This document shows positions 3,313 to 12,733 of a stretch of DNA of 20,000 nt, in pieces (position 1 is the first letter of the stretch; each line of letters starts with the position of its first letter). Below the pieces are notes generated by a model. That model made no database searches. It worked only from the letters and a program-made list of their open reading frames with translations, and was not told where the DNA came from. Source of the stretch: an uncultured virus (IMG/VR IMGVR_UViG_3300042465_003139) (lineage: Duplodnaviria > Heunggongvirae > Uroviricota > Caudoviricetes); IMG/VR virus record IMGVR_UViG_3300042465_003139. One strand, written 5' to 3'. The position numbers were made by a program, and so were the translations under genes.

Positions 3313-3611
3313 TGATGTATTTTGATGGAATGGGTCCTAGGCAATCGATTGCCACAGAGATTTTAGACACCGTGAGATTCGGTGCGCTAGATCGAATCAA
3401 AGGCGCAAATGGTTACCGCAAGCAAAAACTTGACAAAGGTGATGCATATGTGATACCATTTGGGTTATCAAAAGATTGTTATGGTGCAGTCCTAGTGAAA
3501 GCACCTAAGAATGTAGAAGTGCAGTATAGGATTAATGGTAAGAAGTTTATAAAGAGTTTTCGCTATGCGAGTGAAGTGAAAAGTTTCTTAGTGAAACAAT
3601 TCATTCAATGA
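3312..3611 (+). CDS. Hypothetical protein
   Basis: 99 aa, TGATG coupling with the upstream gene. Confidence 0.65.
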   Translation: MMYFDGMGPRQSIATEILDTVRFGALDRIKGANGYRKQKLDKGDAYVIPFGLSKDCYGAVLVKAPKNVEVQYRINGKKFIKSFRYASEVKSFLVKQFIQ

Positions 3612-3707
3612 TCAGAATGGGGAACTTGCCAATTGGACTTCAATGGCTCAGTTTTAAACAACAGCAGACTATTGTGAAATAGACAACCGTGCCCCTTAAT
3701 AAAAAAC

Positions 3708-3736
3708 TTGAAAAAAACTTTTGATTGTGATATAAT
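3708..3736 (+). promoter_or_regulatory. Sigma70-like promoter for the MazG-like gene and leader peptide
   Basis: TTGAAA-17 nt-TATAAT. Confidence 0.55.
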
Positions 3737-3758
3737 TGTAGTGTTCAAAGGATATATA

Positions 3759-4040
3759 ATGAATGAGAAACAAAAAGAGATTCTTAGGATCACACAGGAA
3801 GAATGTGCAGAGGTGATTCAAGCAATCAGTAAGATTTTTCGATTTGGTATTGATGAAATGTATCTAGATCAAACCAATCGTCAAAGGCTTGCAGGAGAAC
3901 TTGGTGACTTACAATGTATGATTACATTGTTGAAACAACATAATGTTGTAGATGACTCAGAAATTTTTAAAGCAGAACTAAACAAACGTAATAGACTGAC
4001 ACAATGGTCAGATATTTTTAAGGAAGACAAACTTCAATGA
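3759..4040 (+). CDS. MazG-like NTP pyrophosphohydrolase
   Basis: AAGGA SD; EECAEVIQAISK...ELGDL matches the all-alpha NTP-PPase (MazG) EExxE/ExxD motif. Confidence 0.8.
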   Translation: MNEKQKEILRITQEECAEVIQAISKIFRFGIDEMYLDQTNRQRLAGELGDLQCMITLLKQHNVVDDSEIFKAELNKRNRLTQWSDIFKEDKLQ

Positions 4041-4156
4041 AGCAATTATCGAAACTCTCATATAGAAACACAATGCCAGCGTCATGCAATTGGCAGGGTG
4101 TATCTCGCTTTGAGATTGCCGATAGCCACACACCTGGAATGGGGGCTTGTACCTGA
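4037..4156 (+). CDS. Putative attenuator leader peptide (39 aa, all 20 amino acids)
   Basis: MKQLSKLSYRNTMPASCNWQGVSRFEIADSHTPGMGACT*; ATGA overlap with the MazG-like stop; last codons overlap the antiterminator strand. Confidence 0.65.
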   Translation: MKQLSKLSYRNTMPASCNWQGVSRFEIADSHTPGMGACT

Positions 4157-4218
4157 GGACTAAAAAGTCCAACTGAATACAAAGACAAGCCCCCTAGCGT
4201 AAAAACTAGGGGGTTTTT
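4141..4218 (+). terminator. Attenuator: mutually exclusive antiterminator and intrinsic terminator
   Basis: GGGGGCTTGT (4141-4150) is perfectly complementary to ACAAGCCCCC (4185-4194), which overlaps terminator stem CCCCCTAG (4190-4197)/CTAGGGGG (4206-4213) followed by TTTTT. Confidence 0.8.
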
Positions 4219-4223
4219 CTTTG

Positions 4224-4295
4224 TGTTGCTAGAAAACAACGAAGTGAAAAAAATTTCAAAAAGTTGTTGACAACAACCAAGATGCGTGTTAAGAT
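4224..4295 (+). promoter_or_regulatory. tRNA array promoter with upstream TGTTG-N8-CAAC box
   Basis: Box 4224-4241; TTGACA 4267-4272, 17 nt, TAAGAT 4290-4295. Confidence 0.7.
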
Positions 4296-4304
4296 ACGTA
4301 TCTA

Positions 4305-4334
4305 GACTGAAAAATCAGTCACCGCTCTTTAAAA
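4305..4334 (+). promoter_or_regulatory. rrn-like boxB/boxA antitermination signal
   Basis: GACTGA-aaaa-TCAGTC hairpin then CGCTCTTTAAAA, resembling rrn boxA TGCTCTTTAACA. Confidence 0.6.
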
Positions 4335-4350
4335 ATTTGTCTGTCAATTT

Positions 4351-4425
4351 GCACCGTTCGTCTATCGGTTAGGACGTTGCCCTTTCAAGGCGAAAAGACC
4401 AGTTCGATTCTGGTACGGTGTACCA
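4351..4425 (+). tRNA. tRNA-Glu(TTC)
   Basis: Cloverleaf, anticodon loop CTTTCAA, T-loop TTCGATT, encoded CCA. Confidence 0.92.
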
Positions 4426-4608
4426 TTAATAAACATACTGCCCAGTACCGTTGCGGATGGAAGTAAGTCAAACCAATGGGGTAACCCATTAACAATGTTT
4501 GCATTCCAGAGTTAAGTCTCAAGTCCAAGGAATACGTGATAACAAAAGTGAGCAGAGCAAATGCAATATCTTAGGAAGGGATTTGCCAGTATGTTTATTA
4601 ATGGTACA
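4419..4608 (+). ncRNA. Putative structured ncRNA closed by a 22-bp perfect inverted repeat
   Basis: TGTACCATTAATAAACATACTG (4419-4440) pairs with CAGTATGTTTATTAATGGTACA (4587-4608); no credible ORF inside. Confidence 0.55.
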
Positions 4609-4616
4609 AAATTATT

Positions 4617-4763
4617 ATTTGTTTAGTGTTATCAAGGTATCGTCATAGGACGCTATGACTACGCGACAGTAAGGGTGCGACCGAAACTGTCTGATATAAC
4701 TGCTATTCGCTTGCCAGTGCTTGCAACATTGTTGGCAAATAGGCGCGATAACACTAAACAAAT
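4617..4763 (+). ncRNA. Putative structured ncRNA closed by a 17-bp perfect inverted repeat
   Basis: ATTTGTTTAGTGTTATC/GATAACACTAAACAAAT; internal hairpins GTCATAG/CTATGAC, GACAGT/ACTGTC and TTGCCA/TGGCAA. Confidence 0.55.
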
Positions 4764-4769
4764 CATAAT

Positions 4770-4844
4770 GGGGGTGTAGTGCTAATGGGAACACATCTGG
4801 TTTGCAACCAGAAATTGAGAGTTCGATTCTCTCCACCTCCACCA
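4770..4844 (+). tRNA. tRNA-Ala(TGC)
   Basis: Cloverleaf, loop TTTGCAA, G3:U70 pair, CCA. Confidence 0.92.
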
Positions 4845-4866
4845 AAACATTTTTAAGGAGAAAGTA

Positions 4867-4998
4867 ATGAAGCGAAAACAGATCGCTAAGAAACGTAACC
4901 CGTTCGTTATCTTGGCGTTATTTAAAAAAGCGGGAGCGCACCGCAAGTCTAACAAGGCATTGCGAAAGGCGCAAAAGCAAACACCTTTGGGGGTATAA
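4867..4998 (+). CDS. Small basic protein (43 aa) whose stop codon lies inside tRNA-Lys
   Basis: AAGGAG SD 4855-4860; MKRKQIAKKRNPFVILALFKKAGAHRKSNKALRKAQKQTPLGV*. Confidence 0.65.
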   Translation: MKRKQIAKKRNPFVILALFKKAGAHRKSNKALRKAQKQTPLGV

Positions 4999-5063
4999 CT
5001 TAACGGCTAAAGTAGTAGGCTTTTAACCTATTAATCAGAGTTCGATTCTCTGTGCCCCTACCA
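4989..5063 (+). tRNA. tRNA-Lys(TTT)
   Basis: Cloverleaf, loop CTTTTAA, CCA. Confidence 0.9.
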
Positions 5064-5149
5064 TATAAAAACACATTACGAACAGTATCGCTTTTTAGCA
5101 AAGCCTGTGCCAAAGTAGTCAGTCTAGGATAGTGTGTTTCTATATGGTA
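5059..5149 (+). ncRNA. Putative long-stem ncRNA
   Basis: TACCATATAAAAACACATTA pairs with TAGTGTGTTTCTATATGGTA (about 20 bp, imperfect). Confidence 0.45.
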
Positions 5150-5156
5150 TTAGTAT

Positions 5157-5245
5157 GGGTCTTGCCCCTTTCAGCGGACTGTAAATCCGTCGGCTTTGTT
5201 ACGAAAGGAAGTTGCCACGTGGAGCGTTACCATCAAGACCCACCA
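5157..5245 (+). tRNA. Atypical tRNA-Tyr(GTA)-like RNA lacking a D-arm
   Basis: 8-bp acceptor GGGTCTTG/CAAGACCC plus ACCA; anticodon arm GCGGA-CTGTAAA-TCCGT; long variable region; 4-bp T-stem with loop AGCGTTA. Confidence 0.65.
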
Positions 5246-5368
5246 ATTCGCACCGTCAGGTGTGTCAATCCAGCAAAAGGTGCTGGCGTGTAGAATACGG
5301 CGCATCAACGATGTTGCTTTCGGTATCCGCGTAAGAGATACGGCTAAAGTTCGTAATGCCAAATATTA

Positions 5369-5443
5369 GGTCTTGAAGTGTTCATGGACGCACGTAGGCT
5401 TGTCACGCCTAAAGACGGGGATCGTTACCCCGCAGGACCGCCA
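5369..5443 (+). tRNA. tRNA-Asp(GTC)
   Basis: Cloverleaf, loop TTGTCAC, G73, CCA; non-canonical T-loop ATCGTTA. Confidence 0.88.
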
Positions 5444-5448
5444 AATGA

Positions 5449-5524
5449 CGCGGTGTATGGAAGTGGTCATCCGTTTGGTCTCATAAGCCAAGAATCGCAG
5501 GTTCGAATCCTGCCACCGCAACCA
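5449..5524 (+). tRNA. tRNA-fMet(CAT), initiator-like
   Basis: C1:A72 mismatch, loop CTCATAA, CCA. Confidence 0.88.
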
Positions 5525-5529
5525 GTTTT

Positions 5530-5586
5530 AGGATACATTCAGCAAATACAAAAACTTTACTGGAAATAAAGCAAAAGCGTATCCTG
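5530..5586 (+). ncRNA. CAGCAA-motif RNA copy 1 (cargo: anticodon stem-loop, GGA)
   Basis: AGGATAC/GTATCCT stem, ATTCAGCAA, CTTTA-CTGGAAA-TAAAG. Confidence 0.7.
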
Positions 5587-5596
5587 TTATTTTTAT

Positions 5597-5671
5597 TCCA
5601 CAGTAGCACAGCGGTAGTGCAGTTGACTGTTAATCAATTGGTCGTAGGTTCGATCCCTGCCTGTGGAGCCA
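5597..5671 (+). tRNA. tRNA-Asn(GTT)
   Basis: Cloverleaf, loop CTGTTAA, G73, CCA. Confidence 0.93.
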
Positions 5672-5679
5672 TATTTAAA

Positions 5680-5755
5680 GGTGATGTAGTTCAGTTGGTA
5701 GAACACCTCCTTCATACGGAGACTGTCGGGAGTTCGAATCTCTCTATCACCACCA
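5680..5755 (+). tRNA. tRNA with CAT anticodon (elongator Met or Ile2)
   Basis: Cloverleaf, loop TTCATAC, CCA; Met versus lysidine-modified Ile cannot be resolved by eye. Confidence 0.85.
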
Positions 5756-5757
5756 AT

Positions 5758-5832
5758 GGAGTCGTTAGTTTAGTGGCAAAACCGCGGGTTGTGATTCCGC
5801 TATCATGGGTTCGATTCCCATACTTCTCCCCA
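5758..5832 (+). tRNA. tRNA-His(GTG)
   Basis: G-1:C73, loop TTGTGAT, CCA; two acceptor stem mismatches. Confidence 0.85.
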
Positions 5833-5833
5833 T

Positions 5834-5909
5834 GCCACTTGAGCAAGTGTGGTCATTGCGGCGGACTGAAAATCCGTAGAAGTCGGTTCGATTCCGACAG
5901 GTGGTACCA
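5834..5909 (+). tRNA. tRNA-Phe(GAA)
   Basis: Cloverleaf, loop CTGAAAA, CCA. Confidence 0.9.
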
Positions 5910-5919
5910 AAGTAATTAT

Positions 5920-5994
5920 ACCGGATTAACTCAGCGGTAGAGTAATCGCTTGATAAGCGATAAGCCATTGGTTCGATCCCAATATCCGGTACCA
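5920..5994 (+). tRNA. tRNA-Ile(GAT)
   Basis: Cloverleaf, loop TTGATAA, CCA. Confidence 0.9.
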
Positions 5995-6005
5995 ACAAAT
6001 TTATA

Positions 6006-6082
6006 GCCCTGGTGACGGAATTGGTATACGTGTCAGTCTTAGAAACTGAATTTTAGGAGTTCGAGTCTCCTCTAGGGCACCA
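6006..6082 (+). tRNA. tRNA-Leu(TAG) with short variable loop
   Basis: Loop CTTAGAA, Leu-type D-arm, 5-nt variable loop, CCA. Confidence 0.88.
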
Positions 6083-6088
6083 ATTAAT

Positions 6089-6163
6089 ACCCGATTAGTG
6101 AAATGAATATCACACCTTGCTACGAACGAGGAGTTGGGAGTTTGATTCTCTCATTGGGTGCCA
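6089..6163 (+). tRNA. tRNA-Arg(ACG)
   Basis: Loop CTACGAA, T-loop TTTGATT, CCA. Confidence 0.85.
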
Positions 6164-6169
6164 AATTGT

Positions 6170-6243
6170 TGGGGGTTAGTTAAATGGTATAACCACGGAT
6201 TTTGATTCCGTTGTCAAAGGTTCGATTCCTTTACCCTCTGCCA
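6170..6243 (+). tRNA. tRNA-Gln(TTG)
   Basis: Loop TTTTGAT, weak 1:72 pair, G73, CCA. Confidence 0.88.
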
Positions 6244-6253
6244 AAAAATTAAT

Positions 6254-6331
6254 GGTGCGATGCCGGAGCGGTCAAACGGCGGAGCCTGCAAAACTCTTGT
6301 ATCGTGAGTTCGAATCTCACTCGCACCTCCA
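6254..6331 (+). tRNA. tRNA-Cys(GCA)
   Basis: Loop CTGCAAA, U73, CCA. Confidence 0.9.
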
Positions 6332-6369
6332 AGATATATAAATGTTATATCAACTAAAAAAATAAACGT

Positions 6370-7113
6370 ATGAAAAAAATAATCGCAACTATACTCATGA
6401 TGTTTTCTATGAGTGCAAATGCAATTACATTTTATGCTTATAACATTACACAACATCAACCAATTGTTGATTCTGAAATTGGCATTGTTCGACCAATTGC
6501 AAGCATTACAAAATTAATGACTGCGATTGTAGTCTTAGAAAGTGGATTGTCATTAAATGAACGAATCTCATACAAAGGAATGTTCTACTCTCATAAGAAA
6601 TTTACTAGAGATGAATTATTGAATCTAATGTTGGTGAAGAGTGATAACAGAGCCGCAGAAGCATTAGCGGAAGGTATGGGTGGTAAGTTGTGGACGGTTT
6701 ATCAAATGAATAAACGCGCAATGGCACTTGGAATGTATGATTCGAATTTTGATGATACTTCTGGTTTGAGTGCAAAGAACACAAGTACCGCAAAAGATTT
6801 GGTTACACTATTGACTTATGTTTATCAAAATGATAAGATACGTGAAATATCTGCACTCAGTAAATATGATCTTACTGTGGTAGATAAAAAGAATAAAGAG
6901 AAACATATACCAGTCAACAATACTAATTTGAAATTGATGACGAAGTATGATATAATTGAAGTGTCAAAAACAGGCACCACTAATGCCGCAGGCAAATGTC
7001 TAGTCATGGTGGTTCACAAAAATGGAGATAGAATTGCTATTGTTATTCTTGGAGGAAAAACAAGAACCGATGTGGATAATTTAGCAAAACGTATCATAGA
7101 GCAAATAATTTAG
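6370..7113 (+). CDS. D-alanyl-D-alanine carboxy/endopeptidase (peptidase S11, PBP7-like), secreted
   Basis: Signal peptide (SANA), SxxK (ASITK), SxN (SDN) and KTG (SKTGTT) motifs. Confidence 0.9.
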   Translation: MKKIIATILMMFSMSANAITFYAYNITQHQPIVDSEIGIVRPIASITKLMTAIVVLESGLSLNERISYKGMFYSHKKFTRDELLNLMLVKSDNRAAEALAEGMGGKLWTVYQMNKRAMALGMYDSNFDDTSGLSAKNTSTAKDLVTLLTYVYQNDKIREISALSKYDLTVVDKKNKEKHIPVNNTNLKLMTKYDIIEVSKTGTTNAAGKCLVMVVHKNGDRIAIVILGGKTRTDVDNLAKRIIEQII

Positions 7114-7186
7114 CCCCTGTAGCATGAAGGTCGTGCAGTTGCCTTGTAAGCATCAGGTCCGTGTTCGATTCACGGTGGGGGCACCA
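7113..7186 (+). tRNA. tRNA-Thr(TGT)
   Basis: Loop CTTGTAA, CCA; G1 is the last base of the upstream TAG stop. Confidence 0.88.
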
Positions 7187-7192
7187 AACAAT

Positions 7193-7267
7193 GCCTTGTT
7201 AACTCAGCGGTAGAGTGTCTCCCTTACAAGGAGAAGGTCGGCAGTTCGATCCTGTCACAAGGTACCA
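7193..7267 (+). tRNA. tRNA-Val(TAC)
   Basis: Loop CTTACAA, CCA. Confidence 0.92.
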
Positions 7268-7293
7268 GTTTCATATAGTATAGGTAATTTAAT

Positions 7294-7728
7294 GTGTTGC
7301 ATCTTATAAGTGATTTAACTGATAAATTTTTTAATTTTCTAAGCGAAGATCCGGTACGTCCCAACATACCTCATGTTGATCGTGTCGGTAGCAATAAAGA
7401 TATCTTTGTTATGCGCGATGAAGACGATAAGGTGCAGGCTATAACTTGTGTGAGTTATCAGAAAACAATTCCAACAAGCGAAGCAGAATTGTTTGAGAAA
7501 ACTGAAAATCCTGAAGTTGCAATTTTCTATACTATATGGAGTTATAAGCCAGGTGCTGGTAGAACATTGATCTTTGATGCAGTATCGTATATAAAAGATA
7601 ACAGAAAAGGCATTGAAAGATTTGTTACTCTCAGTCCTAAAACTGAAATGGCAAAAAGATTTCATATTAAAAATGGTGCTGTAGTCTTCAGAGAAAATGA
7701 AGAAACAGTAAACTATGAATATAAATGA
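7294..7728 (+). CDS. Hypothetical protein, possibly GNAT-like fold
   Basis: EDPVRP, FYTIWSYKPGAGR, VTLSPKTEMAKRFHIKNGA resemble GNAT motifs A and B; GTG start. Confidence 0.7.
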   Translation: MLHLISDLTDKFFNFLSEDPVRPNIPHVDRVGSNKDIFVMRDEDDKVQAITCVSYQKTIPTSEAELFEKTENPEVAIFYTIWSYKPGAGRTLIFDAVSYIKDNRKGIERFVTLSPKTEMAKRFHIKNGAVVFRENEETVNYEYK

Positions 7729-7733
7729 TTAAT

Positions 7734-7811
7734 CCGAGTGTAGCGCAGTCTGGTTAGCGCATCTGGTTTGGGACCAGAGGGTCGGGAGTTCGAATCTCTC
7801 CACTCGGACCA
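7734..7811 (+). tRNA. tRNA-Pro(TGG)
   Basis: C1:G72, loop TTTGGGA, CCA. Confidence 0.93.
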
Positions 7812-7830
7812 ATGTATAAAGGAAACTAAA

Positions 7831-8010
7831 ATGACGCATGAAGCAGGAAAAGGATCGCGACCACGACCTTTTAGCGTTGCCCAAGACGAATATGAAAGAC
7901 GTTGGGATGCAATTTTCAGTCGCGATTTAGACAAAGAAAAAACAAATGAAGATGGAGAAGTTCTTCATGGTAATGTTATTGATCGCGATGAAAAAGTAGA
8001 AGAAGATTAA
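7831..8010 (+). CDS. Small conserved phage protein (GKGSRPRP motif)
   Basis: AAGGA SD, ATG 7831; MTHEAGKGSRPRPFSV...YERRWDAIF. Confidence 0.75.
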   Translation: MTHEAGKGSRPRPFSVAQDEYERRWDAIFSRDLDKEKTNEDGEVLHGNVIDRDEKVEED

Positions 8011-8016
8011 TTCAAT

Positions 8017-8092
8017 GCAGGTAAAGTGTTTACGGTTACACGGCGGTCTTCCAAACCTCAATAGAGGAGTTCGAATCTCCCTACCTGCTCCA
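8017..8092 (+). tRNA. tRNA-Gly(TCC)
   Basis: Loop CTTCCAA, U73, CCA. Confidence 0.88.
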
Positions 8093-8098
8093 CACATT

Positions 8099-8174
8099 GC
8101 GCCCGTAGTCTAACGGATAAGGCAACACTCTTCTAAAGTGTCTTATGGGGGTTCGAGTCCCTCCGGGCGCGCCA
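8099..8174 (+). tRNA. tRNA-Arg(TCT)
   Basis: Loop CTTCTAA, CCA. Confidence 0.92.
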
Positions 8175-8179
8175 ACAAT

Positions 8180-8253
8180 ATCTCGCTGGTGTAATGGCAG
8201 CATACGGGTCTCCAAAACCCTTGGTGGGAGTTCGAGTCTCTCGCGGGATGCCA
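8180..8253 (+). tRNA. tRNA-Trp(CCA)
   Basis: Loop CTCCAAA, G73, CCA. Confidence 0.9.
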
Positions 8254-8273
8254 ATCAATTTTTAACGCAATAT

Positions 8274-8365
8274 GGAAACGTGGCAGAGTCTGGTTTATTG
8301 CAACAGTCTTGAAAACTGTCGAGTCAGAGATGGCTCCGTGAGTTCGAATCTCACCGTTTCCGCCA
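8274..8365 (+). tRNA. tRNA-Ser(TGA)
   Basis: Long variable arm, loop CTTGAAA, G73, CCA. Confidence 0.93.
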
Positions 8366-8370
8366 ACTAC

Positions 8371-8480
8371 ACTCTCTGAGTAACTACACTTGAGAACAGA
8401 AAAACTTGCCAATGTCGGCAAAAGCAAGGACCTGCAAGGAAGTAGGGTTACCGTGGATTCAAGTACCGCAGAGAGTACCA
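8371..8480 (+). ncRNA. CCA-ended tRNA-like RNA (acceptor and T-arm, non-tRNA core)
   Basis: ACTCTCT/AGAGAGT plus ACCA; T-arm-like GTGGA-TTCAAGT-ACCGC; GTAAC/GTTAC stem encloses two hairpins. Confidence 0.65.
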
Positions 8481-8481
8481 C

Positions 8482-8510
8482 TTGACACACCAGAGTTTCT
8501 GGTGTATAAT
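8482..8510 (+). promoter_or_regulatory. Consensus sigma70 promoter of the ncRNA and Ro-like gene unit, with a palindrome in the spacer
   Basis: TTGACA-17 nt-TATAAT; ACACCAGA-gtt-TCTGGTGT at 8487-8505. Confidence 0.8.
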
Positions 8511-8532
8511 ACGTAGTATTGAGAATGAAAAA

Positions 8533-8756
8533 GGGATGATTACAGCAAGTTAAAAACGACTTAACTTACTAGCCGTCTACAATGGAGGGACCACCGTAAG
8601 GTGTATTTTCGTAGACTAGGCAATGAAGCCGAATCAAATAATGACTCTGGAAAGACAGCAAGATAATGGTAACCCATTTGATTTTTCGTGGAGCATACAA
8701 CCGAAAGGTAGCACGATGTTTACAAGTAAAACTACTCGACTAACTCGCTCATCCCG
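8533..8756 (+). ncRNA. CAGCAA-motif RNA copy 2 (long multi-hairpin cargo)
   Basis: GGGATGA/TCATCCC stem, TTACAGCAA; internal GTCTAC/GTAGAC and GGC-AATGAA-GCC hairpins. Confidence 0.65.
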
Positions 8757-8768
8757 TTATATTATTTT

Positions 8769-8882
8769 AGAATAGGTTCAGCAACAAGTTCACGGCTTCA
8801 TTGCCGTATCAAGATGGTCTGGTTCGCCGGACGCCCTGCGTTTCGAGTTTGGCAGGTTAATCTCAAAGTAGAAACTATTCTG
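8769..8882 (+). ncRNA. CAGCAA-motif RNA copy 3
   Basis: AGAATAG/CTATTCT stem, GTTCAGCAA; hairpins ACGGC-TTCATT-GCCGT, GTCTGG-TTCG-CCGGAC and CCTGC/GCAGG. Confidence 0.7.
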
Positions 8883-8901
8883 TTTTAACATGAAAGATTT
8901 T

Positions 8902-9014
8902 AGAATGCATTCAGCAACATAAAGGCAATGAAAGCCTCCTGTTATTGGTTCGAATCCAATATTACGCTTCATGCGTGATTAGCACAATGGTAGTGCAGAG
9001 TAAAAAGCATTCTG
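8902..9014 (+). ncRNA. CAGCAA-motif RNA copy 4: YrlA-like circularly permuted tRNA mimic
   Basis: AGAATGC/GCATTCT stem; T-arm ATTGG-TTCGAAT-CCAAT, loop-closed acceptor ATTACGC-TTCAT-GCGTGAT, D-arm GCAC-AATGGTA-GTGC. Confidence 0.8.
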
Positions 9015-9022
9015 TTGATTTT

Positions 9023-9084
9023 AGGTTAAGTTCAGCAAACATAAAAGCATTCAACTTGTAATTGAAAACGCAAAAATTAACCTG
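9023..9084 (+). ncRNA. CAGCAA-motif RNA copy 5 (cargo: anticodon stem-loop, TGT)
   Basis: AGGTTAA/TTAACCT stem, GTTCAGCAA, TTCAA-CTTGTAA-TTGAA. Confidence 0.7.
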
Positions 9085-9105
9085 TTGTATTAAAGGAGTT
9101 ATACT

Positions 9106-10527
9106 ATGACAACATTTGTAGACGCAGTAGTAAATCAAGAAGCCCGTACCGAGAATGGTATGAAGGCACGTAAATCAACATCTAGTGCAGTTGTTGATTT
9201 GTTCTACAATGCGGGTGCATCCCGCGGTAAGAACATTACATCAGCATTCTCTGCCGCAATGGCTGAGAACCGCGAGTTGGCTCTTCGAATTGCCGCATGG
9301 CTTCGTGATGCCCGCGGTGGTGCTGGTGAACGTCAGTTGTTTCGTGACATTCTAGTGTATCTAGAAAAGAACGATACACAAGCCGCAAAGGCTCTTCTTC
9401 GCAAAGTTCCTGAATTGGGACGTTGGGATGACCTGTTTGTCTTCACAGGCAAAGAAATGAAGGCTGAAGCATTCACTATGCTTGGTGACGCCCTGCGCCA
9501 GCGCAATGGTCTTGCCGCAAAGTGGACTCCACGCCAAGGTAAACTTGCAGTAGAGATTCGTGAGTTCTTCGGAATGTCACCTAAGTTCTATCGTAAGTCT
9601 CTAGTCGAAATGACTAAGGTCGTGGAACAAAACATGTGTGCTAAAGAATGGGATGCTATTAACTTTAGCCATGTGCCTTCTGTTGCGTCAGCACGTTACA
9701 AGAAAGCATTCAATCGCAATACTACAAAGTATTCCGAATATGTTCAATCTCTTGTAAAGGGTGAAGACAAATCAGTAAAGGTAAATGCATCCGTTGCATA
9801 TCCATACGATGTTCTGAAAGGACGCATCGGTCACTATGGAATGACTTTTGACAAGACAGAAATGGACTTGATTCAAAAGCAATGGGAAGCATTGCCTAAC
9901 TATGTTGGTGATGCAAACATTCTACCTCTGGTAGATGTGTCTGGCTCTATGTCTACTTCAGCAGGTAAGAACACAAAGTTGTCTTGCCTAGATGTTGCAG
10001 TCTCTCTGGGACTGTATCTTGCAGACAAGAATACAGGCAAGTTCAAGGATACGTTCCTGACTTTCTCTGCAAAGCCAGAGTTGCTACACCTGAAGGGTAA
10101 CATCAACCAAAAGATTGACCAAATGGTTAAGTCTAAATGGGAGATGAACACTAACCTTCACGCCGCATTCAACAAGATTCTTGATGTTGCGGTGAAAGGC
10201 AACGTGCCACAAGAAGAAATGCCAGAAATGGTATTGATTCTATCTGACATGCAGTTTGATCAATGCGTAAAGCACGATAACTCTGCTATCGAAATGATTG
10301 CGCGTAAGTATGAAGCCGCAGGATATAAAGTACCACAAGTGGTGTTCTGGAACCTGAATGCATCATACGGAAACGCGCCTGTTAAGTTCGACAAGTCTGG
10401 TACTGCGCTAGTATCTGGATTCTCTCCAGCAATTGTGAAGCCACTCCTTTCAGGAGATATTGATAATTTCACACCAGTATCGGTCATGATGACTACAATC
10501 ATGCAAGACCGTTACAAAGTTCTGTAA
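9106..10527 (+). CDS. DUF2828-type TROVE/Ro60-like protein with C-terminal vWA domain
   Basis: AAGGAG SD; TENG, RDARGGAGER, GRWDD and AAKW N-terminal motifs; MIDAS DVSGSM, ILSDMQFD, VVFWNL and LVSGFSP. Confidence 0.85.
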   Translation: MTTFVDAVVNQEARTENGMKARKSTSSAVVDLFYNAGASRGKNITSAFSAAMAENRELALRIAAWLRDARGGAGERQLFRDILVYLEKNDTQAAKALLRKVPELGRWDDLFVFTGKEMKAEAFTMLGDALRQRNGLAAKWTPRQGKLAVEIREFFGMSPKFYRKSLVEMTKVVEQNMCAKEWDAINFSHVPSVASARYKKAFNRNTTKYSEYVQSLVKGEDKSVKVNASVAYPYDVLKGRIGHYGMTFDKTEMDLIQKQWEALPNYVGDANILPLVDVSGSMSTSAGKNTKLSCLDVAVSLGLYLADKNTGKFKDTFLTFSAKPELLHLKGNINQKIDQMVKSKWEMNTNLHAAFNKILDVAVKGNVPQEEMPEMVLILSDMQFDQCVKHDNSAIEMIARKYEAAGYKVPQVVFWNLNASYGNAPVKFDKSGTALVSGFSPAIVKPLLSGDIDNFTPVSVMMTTIMQDRYKVL

Positions 10528-10533
10528 AGAACC

Positions 10534-10609
10534 GCGGGCGTAACTCAGTTGATAGAGTGTCACCTTGCCAAGGTGAATGTCGAGAGTTCGAATCTCTTCG
10601 CCCGCTCCA
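10534..10609 (+). tRNA. tRNA-Gly(GCC)
   Basis: Loop TTGCCAA, U73, CCA. Confidence 0.93.
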
Positions 10610-10615
10610 AATTTT

Positions 10616-10707
10616 GGTGAAGTGCCCGAGAGGCCTAAGGGAGAAGTTTGCTAAACTTTCGATTCACGAAAGTGGGTCCGTGGGTTCGAATCCCACCTTC
10701 ACCGCCA
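10616..10707 (+). tRNA. tRNA-Ser(GCT)
   Basis: Long variable arm, loop TTGCTAA, G73, CCA. Confidence 0.92.
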
Positions 10708-10997
10708 GACCCGTCAGCACCGAACGTGATCGGTGTCGCTTATTCGGTGTTATAGAATCGGGGGCGGTTAACCGTTAAGAAGAGTGCCCATTTTTAGGGA
10801 GTCCGAACCGCTGAGCCGAATTGCAATGGCTAAGGTTACTATAAACGCAATGACAGGGATGACAACTCAAGTAGGGGCGACTTGGTAAGCGTAGCCTACA
10901 AAGTTTTTATCTATAGGCTTCATGAGAAAAAACAATGAAATTTTCTCTACAATAAAGAATACATATTAACATGACATATTAATACATGGAGGCTATA

Positions 10998-11450
10998 ATG
11001 TCAATTACACTAAAAAATTTAGAGAGTGCCTTAGCAGGAGAGTCTATGGCACATATTAAGTATCGATACTTTGCTAAACTAGCAAGAGCAGAGGGCTTTG
11101 AAGAAGTTGCAAAGCATTTTGAACACACCGCAGATCAAGAAATCAAACATGCATGGGGACACCTTGAATTGCTGATTGGTAAGCCTGACACACGCAAATG
11201 TCTTGAAATGGCAATTGAAGGTGAGACTTACGAATTCACAGAAATGTATCCTAAGTTTGAACATCAAGCAAAAGCAGAAGACAACATTGAAGCAGTCAAA
11301 GAATTCAATGAACAAGGGCGCGAATCAAACGAACATGCACAGCAATTTAGAAATGTTCTGGCACTTGCAGAGAAGCGATTTGCGGCTCTGAAGAAAGTTG
11401 AAGAACGTCATGCTACTGCATATCAGAAAATGTTACAGGAGGTTCAATAA
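10998..11450 (+). CDS. rbr: Rubrerythrin (ferritin-like diiron domain)
   Basis: GGAGG SD; NLxxAxAGESxA..KY..FA, EIKH, GETYE and ExxH diiron motifs. Confidence 0.9.
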   Translation: MSITLKNLESALAGESMAHIKYRYFAKLARAEGFEEVAKHFEHTADQEIKHAWGHLELLIGKPDTRKCLEMAIEGETYEFTEMYPKFEHQAKAEDNIEAVKEFNEQGRESNEHAQQFRNVLALAEKRFAALKKVEERHATAYQKMLQEVQ

Positions 11451-11581
11451 TGGATCACATTTGCATTGTTTGTGGACATATTCACGATGAAGAAACAGAA
11501 GGTAAGTGGGAAGATTTGCCTGAAGACTTTCTCTGTCCAGAGTGTGGTGTAGGTAAAGACGAATACGAAACATTAGAATAA
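11450..11581 (+). CDS. Rubredoxin
   Basis: MDHICIVCGHIHDEETEGKWEDLPEDFLCPECGVGKDEYETLE: two CxxCG motifs and WEDLPED; below the ORF track cut-off. Confidence 0.9.
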   Translation: MDHICIVCGHIHDEETEGKWEDLPEDFLCPECGVGKDEYETLE

Positions 11582-11582
11582 T

Positions 11583-12002
11583 ATGATAGACTGTCTGATC
11601 TTGGGTGATAGTATCGCTGTTGGAGTTCATCAACAAAAACAAGAATGTGTTGCCTATGCAAAGGGTGGAATCAACAGTTGGCAATGGAATCGTGATTACT
11701 TAAAAAATAATTTAACTGCTAACACAGTTATAATCAGTTTAGGTAGCAATGATCACAAGTATATTCACACAGAAGCCGAACTAGTGAAGATGCGCGAAAA
11801 AGTAAAAGGAAACCGCGTGTTTTGGATTTTACCAGCAGGCAATCTCAAAGCCAGTGAAGTTAATATAAACTATCTTCAGTTGACTGTAAAAGAAATTGCC
11901 AATAAGTATGGCGATGTTGTGTTACCAATTACACGATTACAAAAAGATGGTATTCATCCAAGTTGGGCTGGCTACAAAGAACTAGCAGAAAAAACAAAGT
12001 AA
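11583..12002 (+). CDS. SGNH/GDSL-like hydrolase
   Basis: GDS, GSND and DGIHP blocks. Confidence 0.8.
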   Translation: MIDCLILGDSIAVGVHQQKQECVAYAKGGINSWQWNRDYLKNNLTANTVIISLGSNDHKYIHTEAELVKMREKVKGNRVFWILPAGNLKASEVNINYLQLTVKEIANKYGDVVLPITRLQKDGIHPSWAGYKELAEKTK

Positions 12003-12008
12003 TAAAAC

Positions 12009-12099
12009 GCCTCGGTAGTTTAATGGTAAAACAGCGGATTTATACCCCGTAGCGCCAGATAAGCGGCTGATAAGAGTTCGATTCTCTTCCGAGGCACCA
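12009..12099 (+). tRNA. Atypical tRNA with TAT anticodon and long variable arm
   Basis: GCCTCGG/CCGAGGC, loop TTTATAC, 21-nt variable region, canonical T-arm, ACCA. Confidence 0.75.
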
Positions 12100-12100
12100 A

Positions 12101-12184
12101 GCCGCCATGGTGGAATAGGTAGACACAGGAGACTTAAAATCTCCCGCCTTGTGCGTCCCGGTTCGAGTCCGGGTGGCGGCACCA
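12101..12184 (+). tRNA. tRNA-Leu(TAA)
   Basis: Loop CTTAAAA, variable arm, A73, CCA. Confidence 0.93.
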
Positions 12185-12253: not shown

Positions 12254-12733
12254 ATGAAGTTCAATCTTGATGAAGTGAAAGAATTTATCGCAAATCAATC
12301 ACCAGAAACGAAAATCTATATCGGATGCGATTCCGAAAGATTTCGTATTGGTACTGATTGGTATGCAGATTACATTCTAGCAATTGTTGTCCACATCAAT
12401 GGAAACAACGGATGCAAATTGTTTGGTGAAGTTCAACGCGAACGAGACTATGATCAAAAGGTCAATCGTCCACGTTTTCGTTTGATGAATGAAGCATACA
12501 AATTGTCTGAATTGTATTTAAAACTTGCCGATGTGCTAGAAGATCGTTTGGTTGAAGTTCATTTGGATATCAACCCTAACGAAAACTACGGTTCATCTTG
12601 TGTGGTGCAAGAAGCAATTGGATACATTCGTGGTACTTGCAATGTAATTCCTATGGTTAAACCTAGAGCGTTTGCCGCATCATATGCCGCAGACAGACTC
12701 AAGGGATTAAATTTGGGGCTGAAAGTTGCTTGA
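12254..12733 (+). CDS. RNase H-like (YkuK/DUF458-type) protein
   Basis: IYIGCDS, RLMNEA, EVHLDIN and AASYAAD motifs. Confidence 0.8.
   Translation: MKFNLDEVKEFIANQSPETKIYIGCDSERFRIGTDWYADYILAIVVHINGNNGCKLFGEVQRERDYDQKVNRPRFRLMNEAYKLSELYLKLADVLEDRLVEVHLDINPNENYGSSCVVQEAIGYIRGTCNVIPMVKPRAFAASYAADRLKGLNLGLKVA

What the first reader, a model, noticed from the sequence alone, without database searches (positions are those of the whole stretch)
4037..4218. Leader peptide with all 20 amino acids on an attenuator in front of the tRNA array
Seen: the 39-codon ORF has all 20 amino acids within its first 31 residues and uses 35 different codons. Synonymous variety is high (Ser TCG/TCA/TCT/AGC, Gly GGT/GGA/GGG, Ala GCG/GCC/GCT). 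Its last codons (4141-4150) are a perfect 10-nt complement of 4185-4194, which overlaps the 5' strand of an intrinsic terminator. It is coupled (ATGA) to the MazG-like gene. Known: trp/his-type attenuators use ribosome position to choose terminator or antiterminator, with runs of one codon. Inference: a ribosome reaching the stop masks the antiterminator and transcription terminates, while stalling on any depleted or cleaved tRNA allows read-through into an array that supplies all 20 specificities. This would be a general tRNA-shortage sensor, for example against host anticodon nucleases.
Basis: partly seen in the sequence, partly recalled or inferred. Interest (0 to 1): 0.92.

Follow-up and report, generated by a model that had tools for sequence, protein, structure and literature searches.

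The report
Amino-acid-complete leader gating phage tRNA genes
A tiny translated gene that uses all 20 amino acids is built into a switchable transcription stop signal just in front of this uncultured phage's tRNA genes, and it probably lets the phage make more tRNA when decoding in the infected cell falters.

Summary
ORF 4037-4156 has 39 codons, all 20 amino acids by codon 31 and 35 distinct codons. Its last codons (4141-4150) are a perfect complement of 4185-4194, which overlaps the 5' arm of the intrinsic terminator 4187-4216. A 25-tRNA array starts at 4351.

Related uncultured phage contigs gave 28 distinct versions of this leader in six deep lineages. Every version found lies before a tRNA array. 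The frame is always open. In 27 of 28 versions the nascent RNA pairs the ORF tail with the terminator's 5' arm, and three lineages use quite different helix sequences. Twenty of the 28 contain all 20 amino acids and none has fewer than 18. The combined chance for the five lineages other than the window's is 4e-5 (conservative) to 7e-8.

At the same terminator sequence elsewhere, 20 ORFs not followed by tRNAs have 10-17 kinds and mostly lack the complement.

Best reading (about 0.6): a ribosome-dependent attenuator that raises read-through into the tRNA genes when translation is slow.

Caveats: most members also have a promoter after the terminator; some amino acids lie only within or beyond the antiterminator strand; the window has no tRNA-Tyr; there is no experimental evidence. 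Earlier notes of this scan describe similar elements on other DNA.

The parts
3708..3736 (+). sigma-70-like promoter of the short MazG-leader operon
   Evidence: 11 of 12 consensus matches, 17-nt spacer, TG extension
3759..4040 (+). MazG-like nucleoside triphosphate pyrophosphohydrolase gene (93 codons)
   Evidence: Pfam MazG E 1.1e-4, just above its cut-off. PHROG 4856 E 1e-22. 62-86% identical in the leader-bearing relatives.
4037..4156 (+). leader ORF: 39 codons plus stop, all 20 amino acids, start overlapping the MazG stop
   Evidence: Open in 17 of 17 distinct versions while no other frame is. dN/dS is 0.12-0.71 in 14 of 15 pairs.
4047..4124 (+). long imperfect hairpin inside the ORF (5' domain), tipped by the invariant 5-bp helix 4074-4078 / 4091-4095
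   Evidence: MFE. 80% of cells are paired against 28-44% when the partner is slid. 5 pairs show changes on both sides. The tip helix is 100% paired.
4141..4150 (+). antiterminator 5' strand, formed by the last codons of the leader
   Evidence: Perfect 10-nt complement of 4185-4194. Helix 98% paired over 17 sequences, with one compensatory GC-to-AU change. Synonymous sites are frozen.
4154..4156 (+). leader stop codon, 3 nt after the antiterminator strand
   Evidence: In the 17 close relatives the stop lies 1-6 nt after the strand.
4157..4170 (+). small hairpin in the loop of the antiterminator, starting right after the stop
   Evidence: MFE. A hairpin at this place, with a different sequence, is also predicted in the other lineages.
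4185..4194 (+). antiterminator 3' strand, sharing 4190-4194 with the terminator's 5' arm
4187..4218 (+). intrinsic terminator (11-pair stem, 8-nt loop) with U-run
   Evidence: 99% paired over 17 sequences.
4267..4295 (+). second sigma-70-like promoter, between the terminator and the first tRNA
   Evidence: 10 of 12 matches, TG extension. Conserved in most relatives but missing in L111, L117, L133 and L136.
4324..4340 (+). conserved 17-nt element just 5' of the first tRNA
   Evidence: Conserved across clades whose first tRNA differs. One copy in the window, at 3 mismatches to the consensus.
4351..12184 (+). tRNA array: 25 genes, 19 amino-acid specificities, interrupted by protein genes
   Evidence: ARAGORN; Rfam finds 24 of them

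Best explanation
This is a ribosome-dependent (leader-peptide) transcription attenuator placed at the head of a phage tRNA gene array.

Transcripts start at the promoter at 3708 and carry the MazG-like gene, then a 39-codon leader that is translated by the same ribosomes. If the leading ribosome moves quickly to the leader's stop codon, it covers 4141-4150. Then 4185-4197 pairs with 4206-4213, the terminator forms and the transcript ends at 4218. If the ribosome lags or stalls earlier in the leader, 4141-4150 pairs with 4185-4194 as soon as that segment is made. The terminator then cannot form, and RNA polymerase runs on into the tRNA genes.

Because the leader contains every amino acid, shortage of almost any charged tRNA would slow the ribosome. 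Such a shortage could come from starvation, codon mismatch or cleavage by a host nuclease. The result would be a feedback that raises phage tRNA output when decoding is poor, on top of a basal promoter at 4267.

Shown: the conserved open frame, the two mutually exclusive helices, the link to tRNA arrays and the excess of amino-acid kinds.
Inferred: translation of the leader, which ribosome positions select which helix, the direction of the response and the physiological signal.
For: 1. Family. There are 22 DNA versions and 17 distinct peptides of the close family. Five further lineages bring the total to 28 distinct peptides.

2. Link to tRNAs. Each lies upstream of a same-strand tRNA or tRNA array wherever enough downstream DNA is held.

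3. Coding signal. The leader frame is open in 17 of 17 versions, against 0, 1, 0, 6 and 4 of 17 for the other frames. Length varies from 30 to 57 codons without loss of frame.

4. Alternative helices.
- The antiterminator is 98% paired and the terminator 99% paired over 17 sequences.
- A GC-to-AU double change in L013 keeps the antiterminator pair while breaking the terminator pair at the same base.
- The nascent RNA folds into the antiterminator in 17 of 17 close relatives and in 27 of 28 versions overall; the one miss is a truncated locus.
- L014 (13 bp), L272 (11 bp) and L433 use unrelated helix sequences.
- In the window the two forced folds are isoenergetic, -27.3 against -27.4 kcal/mol.

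5. Control at the same terminator sequence. A complement of 7 nt or more lies upstream in 19 of 19 distinct loci that precede a tRNA, against 3 of 43 that do not.

6. Dependence on read-through. Four contigs lack any plausible promoter in the 65 nt between the terminator and the first tRNA.

7. Amino-acid completeness.
- 20 kinds occur in 20 of 28 peptides, 19 in 5 and 18 in 3.
- Single-lineage chances are 1e-3 to 6.5e-2. Fisher's combination over the five lineages other than the window's gives 6.5e-8 unconditionally. It gives 4.2e-5 when every column identity to any other lineage is counted as inherited.
- 18 distinct ORFs that precede tRNAs have 18-20 kinds. 20 distinct ORFs at the same terminator without a tRNA have 10-17.
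Against: - A strong promoter lies after the terminator in the window and in most relatives. Read-through can therefore only add to tRNA transcription there.
- The codons that a ribosome could stall on while leaving the antiterminator strand free hold all 20 kinds in only 4 of 27 versions. They hold 19 in 4, 18 in 10 and 15-17 in 9. In one clade Gly never occurs upstream of the strand.
- The antiterminator shares only five bases with a terminator stem of 8-13 pairs. In that clade the terminator is 4-10 kcal/mol more stable in most versions, though nearly isoenergetic in one.
- Inside the close family the retention of 20 kinds is mostly explained by conserved residues (P 0.1-0.9, except L004 at about 0.01). 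The high codon variety is not shared.
- The window has a Tyr codon in the leader but no tRNA-Tyr.
- The element is not general. Only 2 of 27 tRNA-Glu-headed arrays sampled have it, and the inner array heads of the window have none.
- The null model uses the window's amino-acid frequencies for all phages.
- The lineages are probably distant homologues, not independent inventions.
- No transcript ends, ribosome positions or reporter data exist.
Confidence: 0.6

Rival explanations
1. The attenuator is real, but its signal is not shortage of particular tRNAs. It reports general coupling of translation to transcription. Alternatively the conserved nascent peptide arrests the ribosome near the stop in response to some ligand or state, as in TnaC- or Erm-type leaders. 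On this view the full amino-acid set serves another purpose or is a by-product.
For: The peptide is conserved well beyond what codon sampling needs: invariant Trp-Gln, Glu and Gly, and near-invariant Pro, Arg, His and Ala. Several amino acids lie only in or after the antiterminator strand, where stalling should not induce. In one clade the leader is translated by ribosomes arriving from MazG, so delay anywhere in 93 + 39 codons would count.
Against: Much of that conservation also freezes synonymous sites and coincides with RNA helices, so it need not reflect peptide function. The other lineages do not share the conserved residues yet keep 19-20 kinds. No ligand or arrest motif is identified.
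Confidence: 0.2
2. This is an ordinary operon end: a small conserved protein gene followed by a strong terminator. The complement in its last codons is a relic of the terminator or serves mRNA stability, and there is no regulated read-through.
For: A promoter right after the terminator gives the tRNA array its own start. The terminator is strong and extended by A/U-tract pairing. dN/dS below 1 fits a functional peptide.
Against: The complement is tied to tRNA heads: 19 of 19 against 3 of 43 at the same terminator. It is kept with different sequences in other lineages. Four contigs have no promoter after the terminator. Gene callers and family libraries know no such protein: there are no Pfam or PHROG hits, and only 3 proteins turned up among 5.8 billion. 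The amino-acid count is far from chance.
Confidence: 0.1
3. This is an RNA-only switch. The structured leader binds a protein or a tRNA (T-box-like) to choose between terminator and antiterminator, and the open frame is incidental.
For: The leader RNA is highly structured, with some covariation, and synonymous sites in the helices are frozen.
Against: Only the leader frame stays open across versions of differing length. The start codon is invariant. Two lineages have a ribosome-binding site before it. No T-box or other Rfam family matches 3500-4800 at E up to 5, apart from a sub-threshold His_leader hit on the wrong strand.
Confidence: 0.05

Closest known systems
Leader-peptide transcription attenuators of enterobacterial amino-acid operons (trp, his, leu, phe; multivalent thr and ilvGMEDA).
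   Same: A short translated ORF. An intrinsic terminator. An antiterminator helix that competes for the terminator's 5' arm. A leader stop codon placed so that a ribosome that finishes covers the antiterminator strand. A further hairpin inside the leader that could act as a pause or synchronising element.
   Different: There is no run of codons for one or a few amino acids; nearly every amino acid appears once or a few times. The genes downstream are tRNA genes of a phage, not biosynthetic enzymes. A second promoter follows the terminator. In one clade the leader is translationally coupled to a preceding protein gene.
Ribosome-mediated attenuators that sense general translation inhibition upstream of antibiotic-resistance genes (vmlR: PMC9226507; msrD: 10.1101/2021.11.29.470318). 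Only the search listing and abstracts were seen.
   Same: A leader ORF whose slowed translation, whichever codon causes it, shifts a terminator/antiterminator balance and switches on genes that relieve the translation problem.
   Different: Those respond to drug-stalled ribosomes at particular peptide contexts and control ABC-F or efflux genes in bacteria. Here the controlled genes are tRNAs, the owner is a phage, and the leader appears selected for a complete amino-acid set.
T-box riboswitches (recalled)
   Same: A terminator/antiterminator switch that reports tRNA charging status and controls translation-related genes.
   Different: A T-box binds the tRNA directly and needs no translation. 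No T-box match was found here, and the conserved open frame points to a ribosome.

Membership tests
Leader-peptide (ribosome-mediated) transcription attenuator | Short ORF in the leader transcript that is translated | tested here: inconclusive
   The sequence signals are strong. The frame is open in 17 of 17 versions against 0-6 of 17 for other frames. The ATG is invariant. Length varies from 30 to 57 codons with the frame kept. Translation itself was not observed.
Leader-peptide (ribosome-mediated) transcription attenuator | Intrinsic terminator between leader and regulated genes | tested here: met
   4187-4216 plus U-run; 99% paired over 17 sequences
Leader-peptide (ribosome-mediated) transcription attenuator | Antiterminator helix mutually exclusive with the terminator | tested here: met
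   4141-4150 pairs with 4185-4194. It is 98% paired with one compensatory change. It forms in the nascent-RNA MFE in 27 of 28 versions. Forced folds are -27.3 against -27.4 kcal/mol.
Leader-peptide (ribosome-mediated) transcription attenuator | Leader stop placed so that a finishing ribosome masks the antiterminator strand | tested here: met
   The stop is 1-6 nt after the strand in 17 of 17 close versions. It lies within about 15 nt in the other lineages. The footprint size is taken from general knowledge.
Leader-peptide (ribosome-mediated) transcription attenuator | Cluster of regulatory codons for the amino acid(s) whose pathway is controlled | tested here: not met
   There is no run of any codon. 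35 distinct codons and 20 amino acids occur in 39 codons.
Leader-peptide (ribosome-mediated) transcription attenuator | Read-through rises when ribosomes stall in the leader | not testable with these tools
   This needs a reporter or 3'-end mapping. The RNA-library contigs were uninformative.
Rfam His_leader (RF00514) | Match at or above the gathering score on the sense strand | tested here: not met
   19.9 bits against a gathering score of 49, E 1.6, on the minus strand
T-box riboswitch | Match to the Rfam T-box model | tested here: not met
   No T-box hit in 3500-4800 at E up to 5, nor in the whole window at gathering scores

The most novel reading that the evidence does not exclude
A group of freshwater phages carries a 'checklist' leader: a mini-gene kept by selection to contain every amino acid and wired to a terminator switch. 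A shortage or cleavage of essentially any host tRNA slows one test ribosome and turns up transcription of the phage's own replacement tRNA set. That would be a self-regulating counter-measure to starvation, codon mismatch and host anticodon nucleases.
Probability: 0.4. Interest if true: 0.9.

Novelty: new variant of a known kind. Interest (0 to 1): 0.8.

Why it matters
Phage tRNA arrays are usually explained by codon usage or by replacement of tRNAs that the host destroys. How their expression is controlled is largely unknown. Three full-text searches turned up no description of a leader-peptide attenuator in front of tRNA genes.

A leader that samples all amino acids would extend attenuation logic from 'one pathway, one amino acid' to a general monitor of decoding capacity. 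It would also give a small, portable part of about 180 nt whose behaviour can be tested directly in a reporter. If it responds to tRNA cleavage, it links phage tRNA genes mechanistically to anti-phage anticodon nucleases.

Earlier notes of this scan report similar elements in other phage genomes. If those hold, the arrangement is widespread rather than a curiosity of one clade.

Tried and rejected
- GenBank phages. No relative of the leader region was found apart from tRNA hits. tblastn with a 42-residue leader gave only E = 3 hits. The MazG protein reached only 36% identity in two Pseudomonas phages. No cultured host or isolate is therefore known.
- The window's own assembly is not held. The nearest record, G001, is an 18.9-kb fragment without this region.
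- Bacterial and archaeal genomes: 0 matches to a specific leader-terminator pattern.
- Protein database of 5.8 billion sequences, searched with the 17-peptide profile: only 3 unnamed proteins. A first try with the 39-residue peptide was too short for the tool.
- A second DNA pattern scan for the close family gave no new members.
- RNA evidence. Only small shares of the region's sampled words were found in 11 runs. Laying four runs (contigs only) gave two short contigs, about 95% alike, over 4023-4170 in river metatranscriptome libraries of two studies, and nothing across the terminator. There is no strand, end or level information and DNA carry-over is possible, so this counts as no evidence.
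- An interim conclusion, later revised. Within the close family the 20-kind property looked merely inherited. The column-permutation excess is confounded by relatedness, and the conditional redraw was unremarkable except for L004. The distant lineages found later changed this reading.
- Codon variety as a family trait was rejected. Given the peptide, P is 0.0012 in the window but mostly 0.05-0.77 elsewhere.
- The RNAalifold consensus pairs 4056-4061 with 4140-4145, a possible 'segment 1:2'. That helix has six pairs, three of them G-U, is weak, and was not pursued.
- My terminator finder accepts perfect stems only. It missed some known family members and the L491 type until the loop limit was raised, so absences in the screens are soft.
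- One small ORF before a tRNA-Glu (L469: 39 codons, 17 kinds) did not meet the terminator criteria and was not counted. It may be a further, less complete relative.
- Two open-ended ORFs were treated as ends of ordinary genes: L459 (14 kinds) and L471 (16 kinds).

Full report
WHAT IS THERE

The window is phage-like. All long ORFs and 25 tRNA genes (4351-12184) lie on the + strand.

Upstream of the first tRNA lies a compact unit:
- a sigma-70-like promoter at 3708-3736;
- a 93-codon MazG-like pyrophosphohydrolase gene at 3759-4040;
- a 39-codon ORF at 4037-4156 whose ATG overlaps the MazG stop;
- an intrinsic terminator at 4187-4216 with a U-run to 4218;
- a second promoter at 4267-4295;
- tRNA-Glu at 4351.

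The ORF has 20 amino acids by codon 31 and 35 distinct codons, and 4141-4150 is a perfect 10-nt complement of 4185-4194 that overlaps the terminator's 5' arm.

Taken alone, these features are uncommon but not extraordinary. P(20 kinds) is 2-4e-3. P(complement of 10 nt or more) is 6.5e-4.

THE CLOSE FAMILY

I searched viral contigs with the MazG protein, metagenome contigs with a MazG alignment and viral contigs with a DNA pattern for the pairing. This gave 22 distinct DNA versions and 17 distinct peptides of 34-42 codons. All come from uncultured, mostly freshwater contigs. All follow a MazG gene, and all are followed by a same-strand tRNA array whose first tRNA and gene order differ between clades.

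Coding signal:
- Only the leader frame is open in all 17 versions.
- The ATG is invariant.
- dN/dS is 0.12-0.71 in 14 of 15 pairs.

RNA-level constraint is also evident. Many synonymous sites are frozen, and they coincide with predicted helices. These helices are a long hairpin inside the ORF (4047-4124), the antiterminator strand and the terminator.

Structure:
- The antiterminator helix is 98% paired. It carries one fully compensatory change, in L013, at a base whose terminator pair is broken by the same change.
- The nascent RNA, up to the end of the terminator's 5' arm, folds into the antiterminator in 17 of 17 versions.
- In the window the two alternative folds are isoenergetic.

Four contigs (L111, L117, L133, L136) have lost the promoter between the terminator and the first tRNA. 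That leaves 65 nt with no usable promoter, so their arrays must be reached by transcription through this terminator.

AN INTERIM DOUBT

Inside this close family the full amino-acid set looked largely inherited. With the residues shared with the window held fixed, retention of 20 kinds was unremarkable (P 0.1-0.9) except in L004 (about 0.01). The high synonymous variety was confined to the window's clade. The codons upstream of the antiterminator strand held all 20 kinds in only 4 of 17 peptides.

WIDENING THE VIEW

Earlier notes of this scan describe leader-type attenuators, some 'pan-amino-acid', before tRNA arrays in other genomes. These are unchecked AI notes and I give them no weight as evidence. 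They did prompt me to screen tRNA-array heads in my own fetched loci, blind to composition. The screen asked for an ORF of 15-70 codons ending 75 nt or less before an intrinsic terminator, and scored complementarity between the ORF tail and the terminator's 5' arm.

The screen and three further scans found five more lineages:
- L014 type: 34 codons, 20 kinds, with its own promoter and ribosome-binding site.
- L272 type: 57 codons, 20 kinds.
- L543/L379 type: seven distinct peptides of 35-36 codons, all with 20 kinds.
- L491/L389 type: 40 codons, 20 kinds.
- L433 type: 30 codons, 19 kinds.

Their peptides share only scattered motifs with the window's family, so they are probably distant homologues.

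Over all 28 distinct peptides, 20 have all 20 amino acids, 5 have 19 and 3 have 18. Chance values per lineage are 1.0e-3 to 6.5e-2. I combined the five lineages other than the window's, leaving the window's out because it was the discovery. The combined value is 6.5e-8.

The antiterminator architecture is kept in 27 of 28 versions; the miss is a truncated locus. L014, L272 and L433 use helix sequences unrelated to the window's.

A NATURAL CONTROL

The window's terminator sequence occurs in 85 viral loci.
- The 18 distinct upstream ORFs that are followed by a tRNA within 450 nt have 18-20 kinds.
- The 20 distinct ORFs not followed by a tRNA in the DNA held have 10-17 kinds.
- 35 loci have no such ORF, and none of these has a tRNA.
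- A complement of 7 nt or more to the terminator's 5' arm lies upstream in 19 of 19 distinct tRNA-preceding loci, against 3 of 43 others.

The tRNA-preceding loci belong to only two lineages, so this is a contrast and not 19 independent events.

HOW IT MOST LIKELY WORKS

The anatomy is that of a classical ribosome-dependent attenuator. A ribosome that reaches the stop (4154-4156) covers 4141-4150, so the terminator forms. A ribosome delayed earlier leaves 4141-4150 free to capture 4185-4194 before the terminator's 3' arm is made, and transcription continues into the tRNA genes.

The hairpin inside the ORF may pause the polymerase until the ribosome arrives, as in the trp leader. That step is inference from general knowledge.

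The complete amino-acid set fits a sensor of almost any charged-tRNA shortage. The phage's tRNA array is the logical output.

WHAT DOES NOT FIT

- Most members, the window included, have a good promoter after the terminator, so read-through can only add to a basal level.
- In 23 of 27 versions, one to five amino acids occur only within or after the strand that a stalled ribosome would itself mask. Completeness is therefore a property of the whole ORF rather than of the predicted sensing zone. Either the footprint assumption is too simple, or completeness serves something I have not understood.
- The antiterminator shares only five bases with the terminator stem. In one clade the terminator is 4-10 kcal/mol more stable in most versions.
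- The element is not general among phage tRNA arrays. Only 2 of 27 tRNA-Glu-headed arrays sampled have it, and the inner heads of this window's array have none.

COMPARISON WITH KNOWN SYSTEMS

It works like the leader-peptide attenuators of amino-acid operons, and in logic like the translation-inhibition-sensing attenuators of vmlR and msrD (abstracts only).

It fails one defining feature of the amino-acid-operon class, the cluster of regulatory codons. It also controls tRNA genes in a phage.

It is not a T-box and not an Rfam His_leader.

Three full-text searches found no description of such control of tRNA genes. These searches cover open-access papers and preprints only.

VERDICT

The attenuator reading is well supported by comparative sequence evidence (about 0.6 with the tRNA-shortage signal, about 0.8 for some ribosome-dependent attenuation). 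The claim that the amino-acid set is selected is now statistically strong. The physiological trigger remains untested. It is a new variant of a known kind of regulator and is worth a bench test.

Noticed in passing
window 4419-4449 / 4578-4608; 4611-4633 / 4747-4769; 5059-5078 / 5130-5149: The long spacers between the first tRNAs are bracketed by inverted repeats of 20-31 nt (87-96% complementary). These abut or overlap the tRNA ends. They look like structured spacer RNAs and have no Rfam match.
   Followed up: partly
window 12009-12099: A 91-nt tRNA gene that ARAGORN calls Ile(TAT) has a long extra arm and an anticodon stem I could not draw by eye. No tRNA-Tyr was found in the window, although related arrays carry one.
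   Followed up: partly
window 4324-4340 and the matching place in L004, L116, L117, L118, L128 and others: A 17-nt element lies 10-30 nt before the first tRNA and after the second promoter. It is conserved across clades whose first tRNA differs (Glu, Gln, Asp). Its function is unknown; it may be a processing or regulatory site.
   Followed up: partly
L111, L117, L133, L136 (about 65 nt between terminator and tRNA-Gln): A stretch of about 75 nt that holds the second promoter and a small hairpin in sister contigs is missing here. This leaves the tRNA array directly behind the terminator.
   Followed up: yes
L010, L011, L012, just after the MazG stop: In these more distant MazG loci the gene is followed by sequences that end like a tRNA or tmRNA 3' end (T-arm plus CCA-type tail) instead of a leader ORF.
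   Followed up: no
L110, L112, L131, L138, L141, L143, L150, L153, L154, L157, L158: A family of GC-rich viral contigs has the same G-run and the same terminator core at the end of an unrelated ORF. The G-run can pair either with a nearby C-run or with the terminator arm. I did not check whether tRNAs follow.
   Followed up: no
window 6370-7113, 9106-10527, 12254-12733: Protein genes are interspersed in the tRNA region. They include an S11-type D-Ala-D-Ala carboxypeptidase, a DUF2828/DUF7788 protein that some phage records call an RNA-binding protein, and an RNase H-like protein.
   Followed up: no
L379 / L543 type, first 10 codons of the longer ORF version: The sequence just upstream of the leader start resembles the 3' end of the MazG gene of the window's clade, although the upstream gene here is a small membrane-like protein. 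This suggests a remnant of a lost MazG gene.
   Followed up: no
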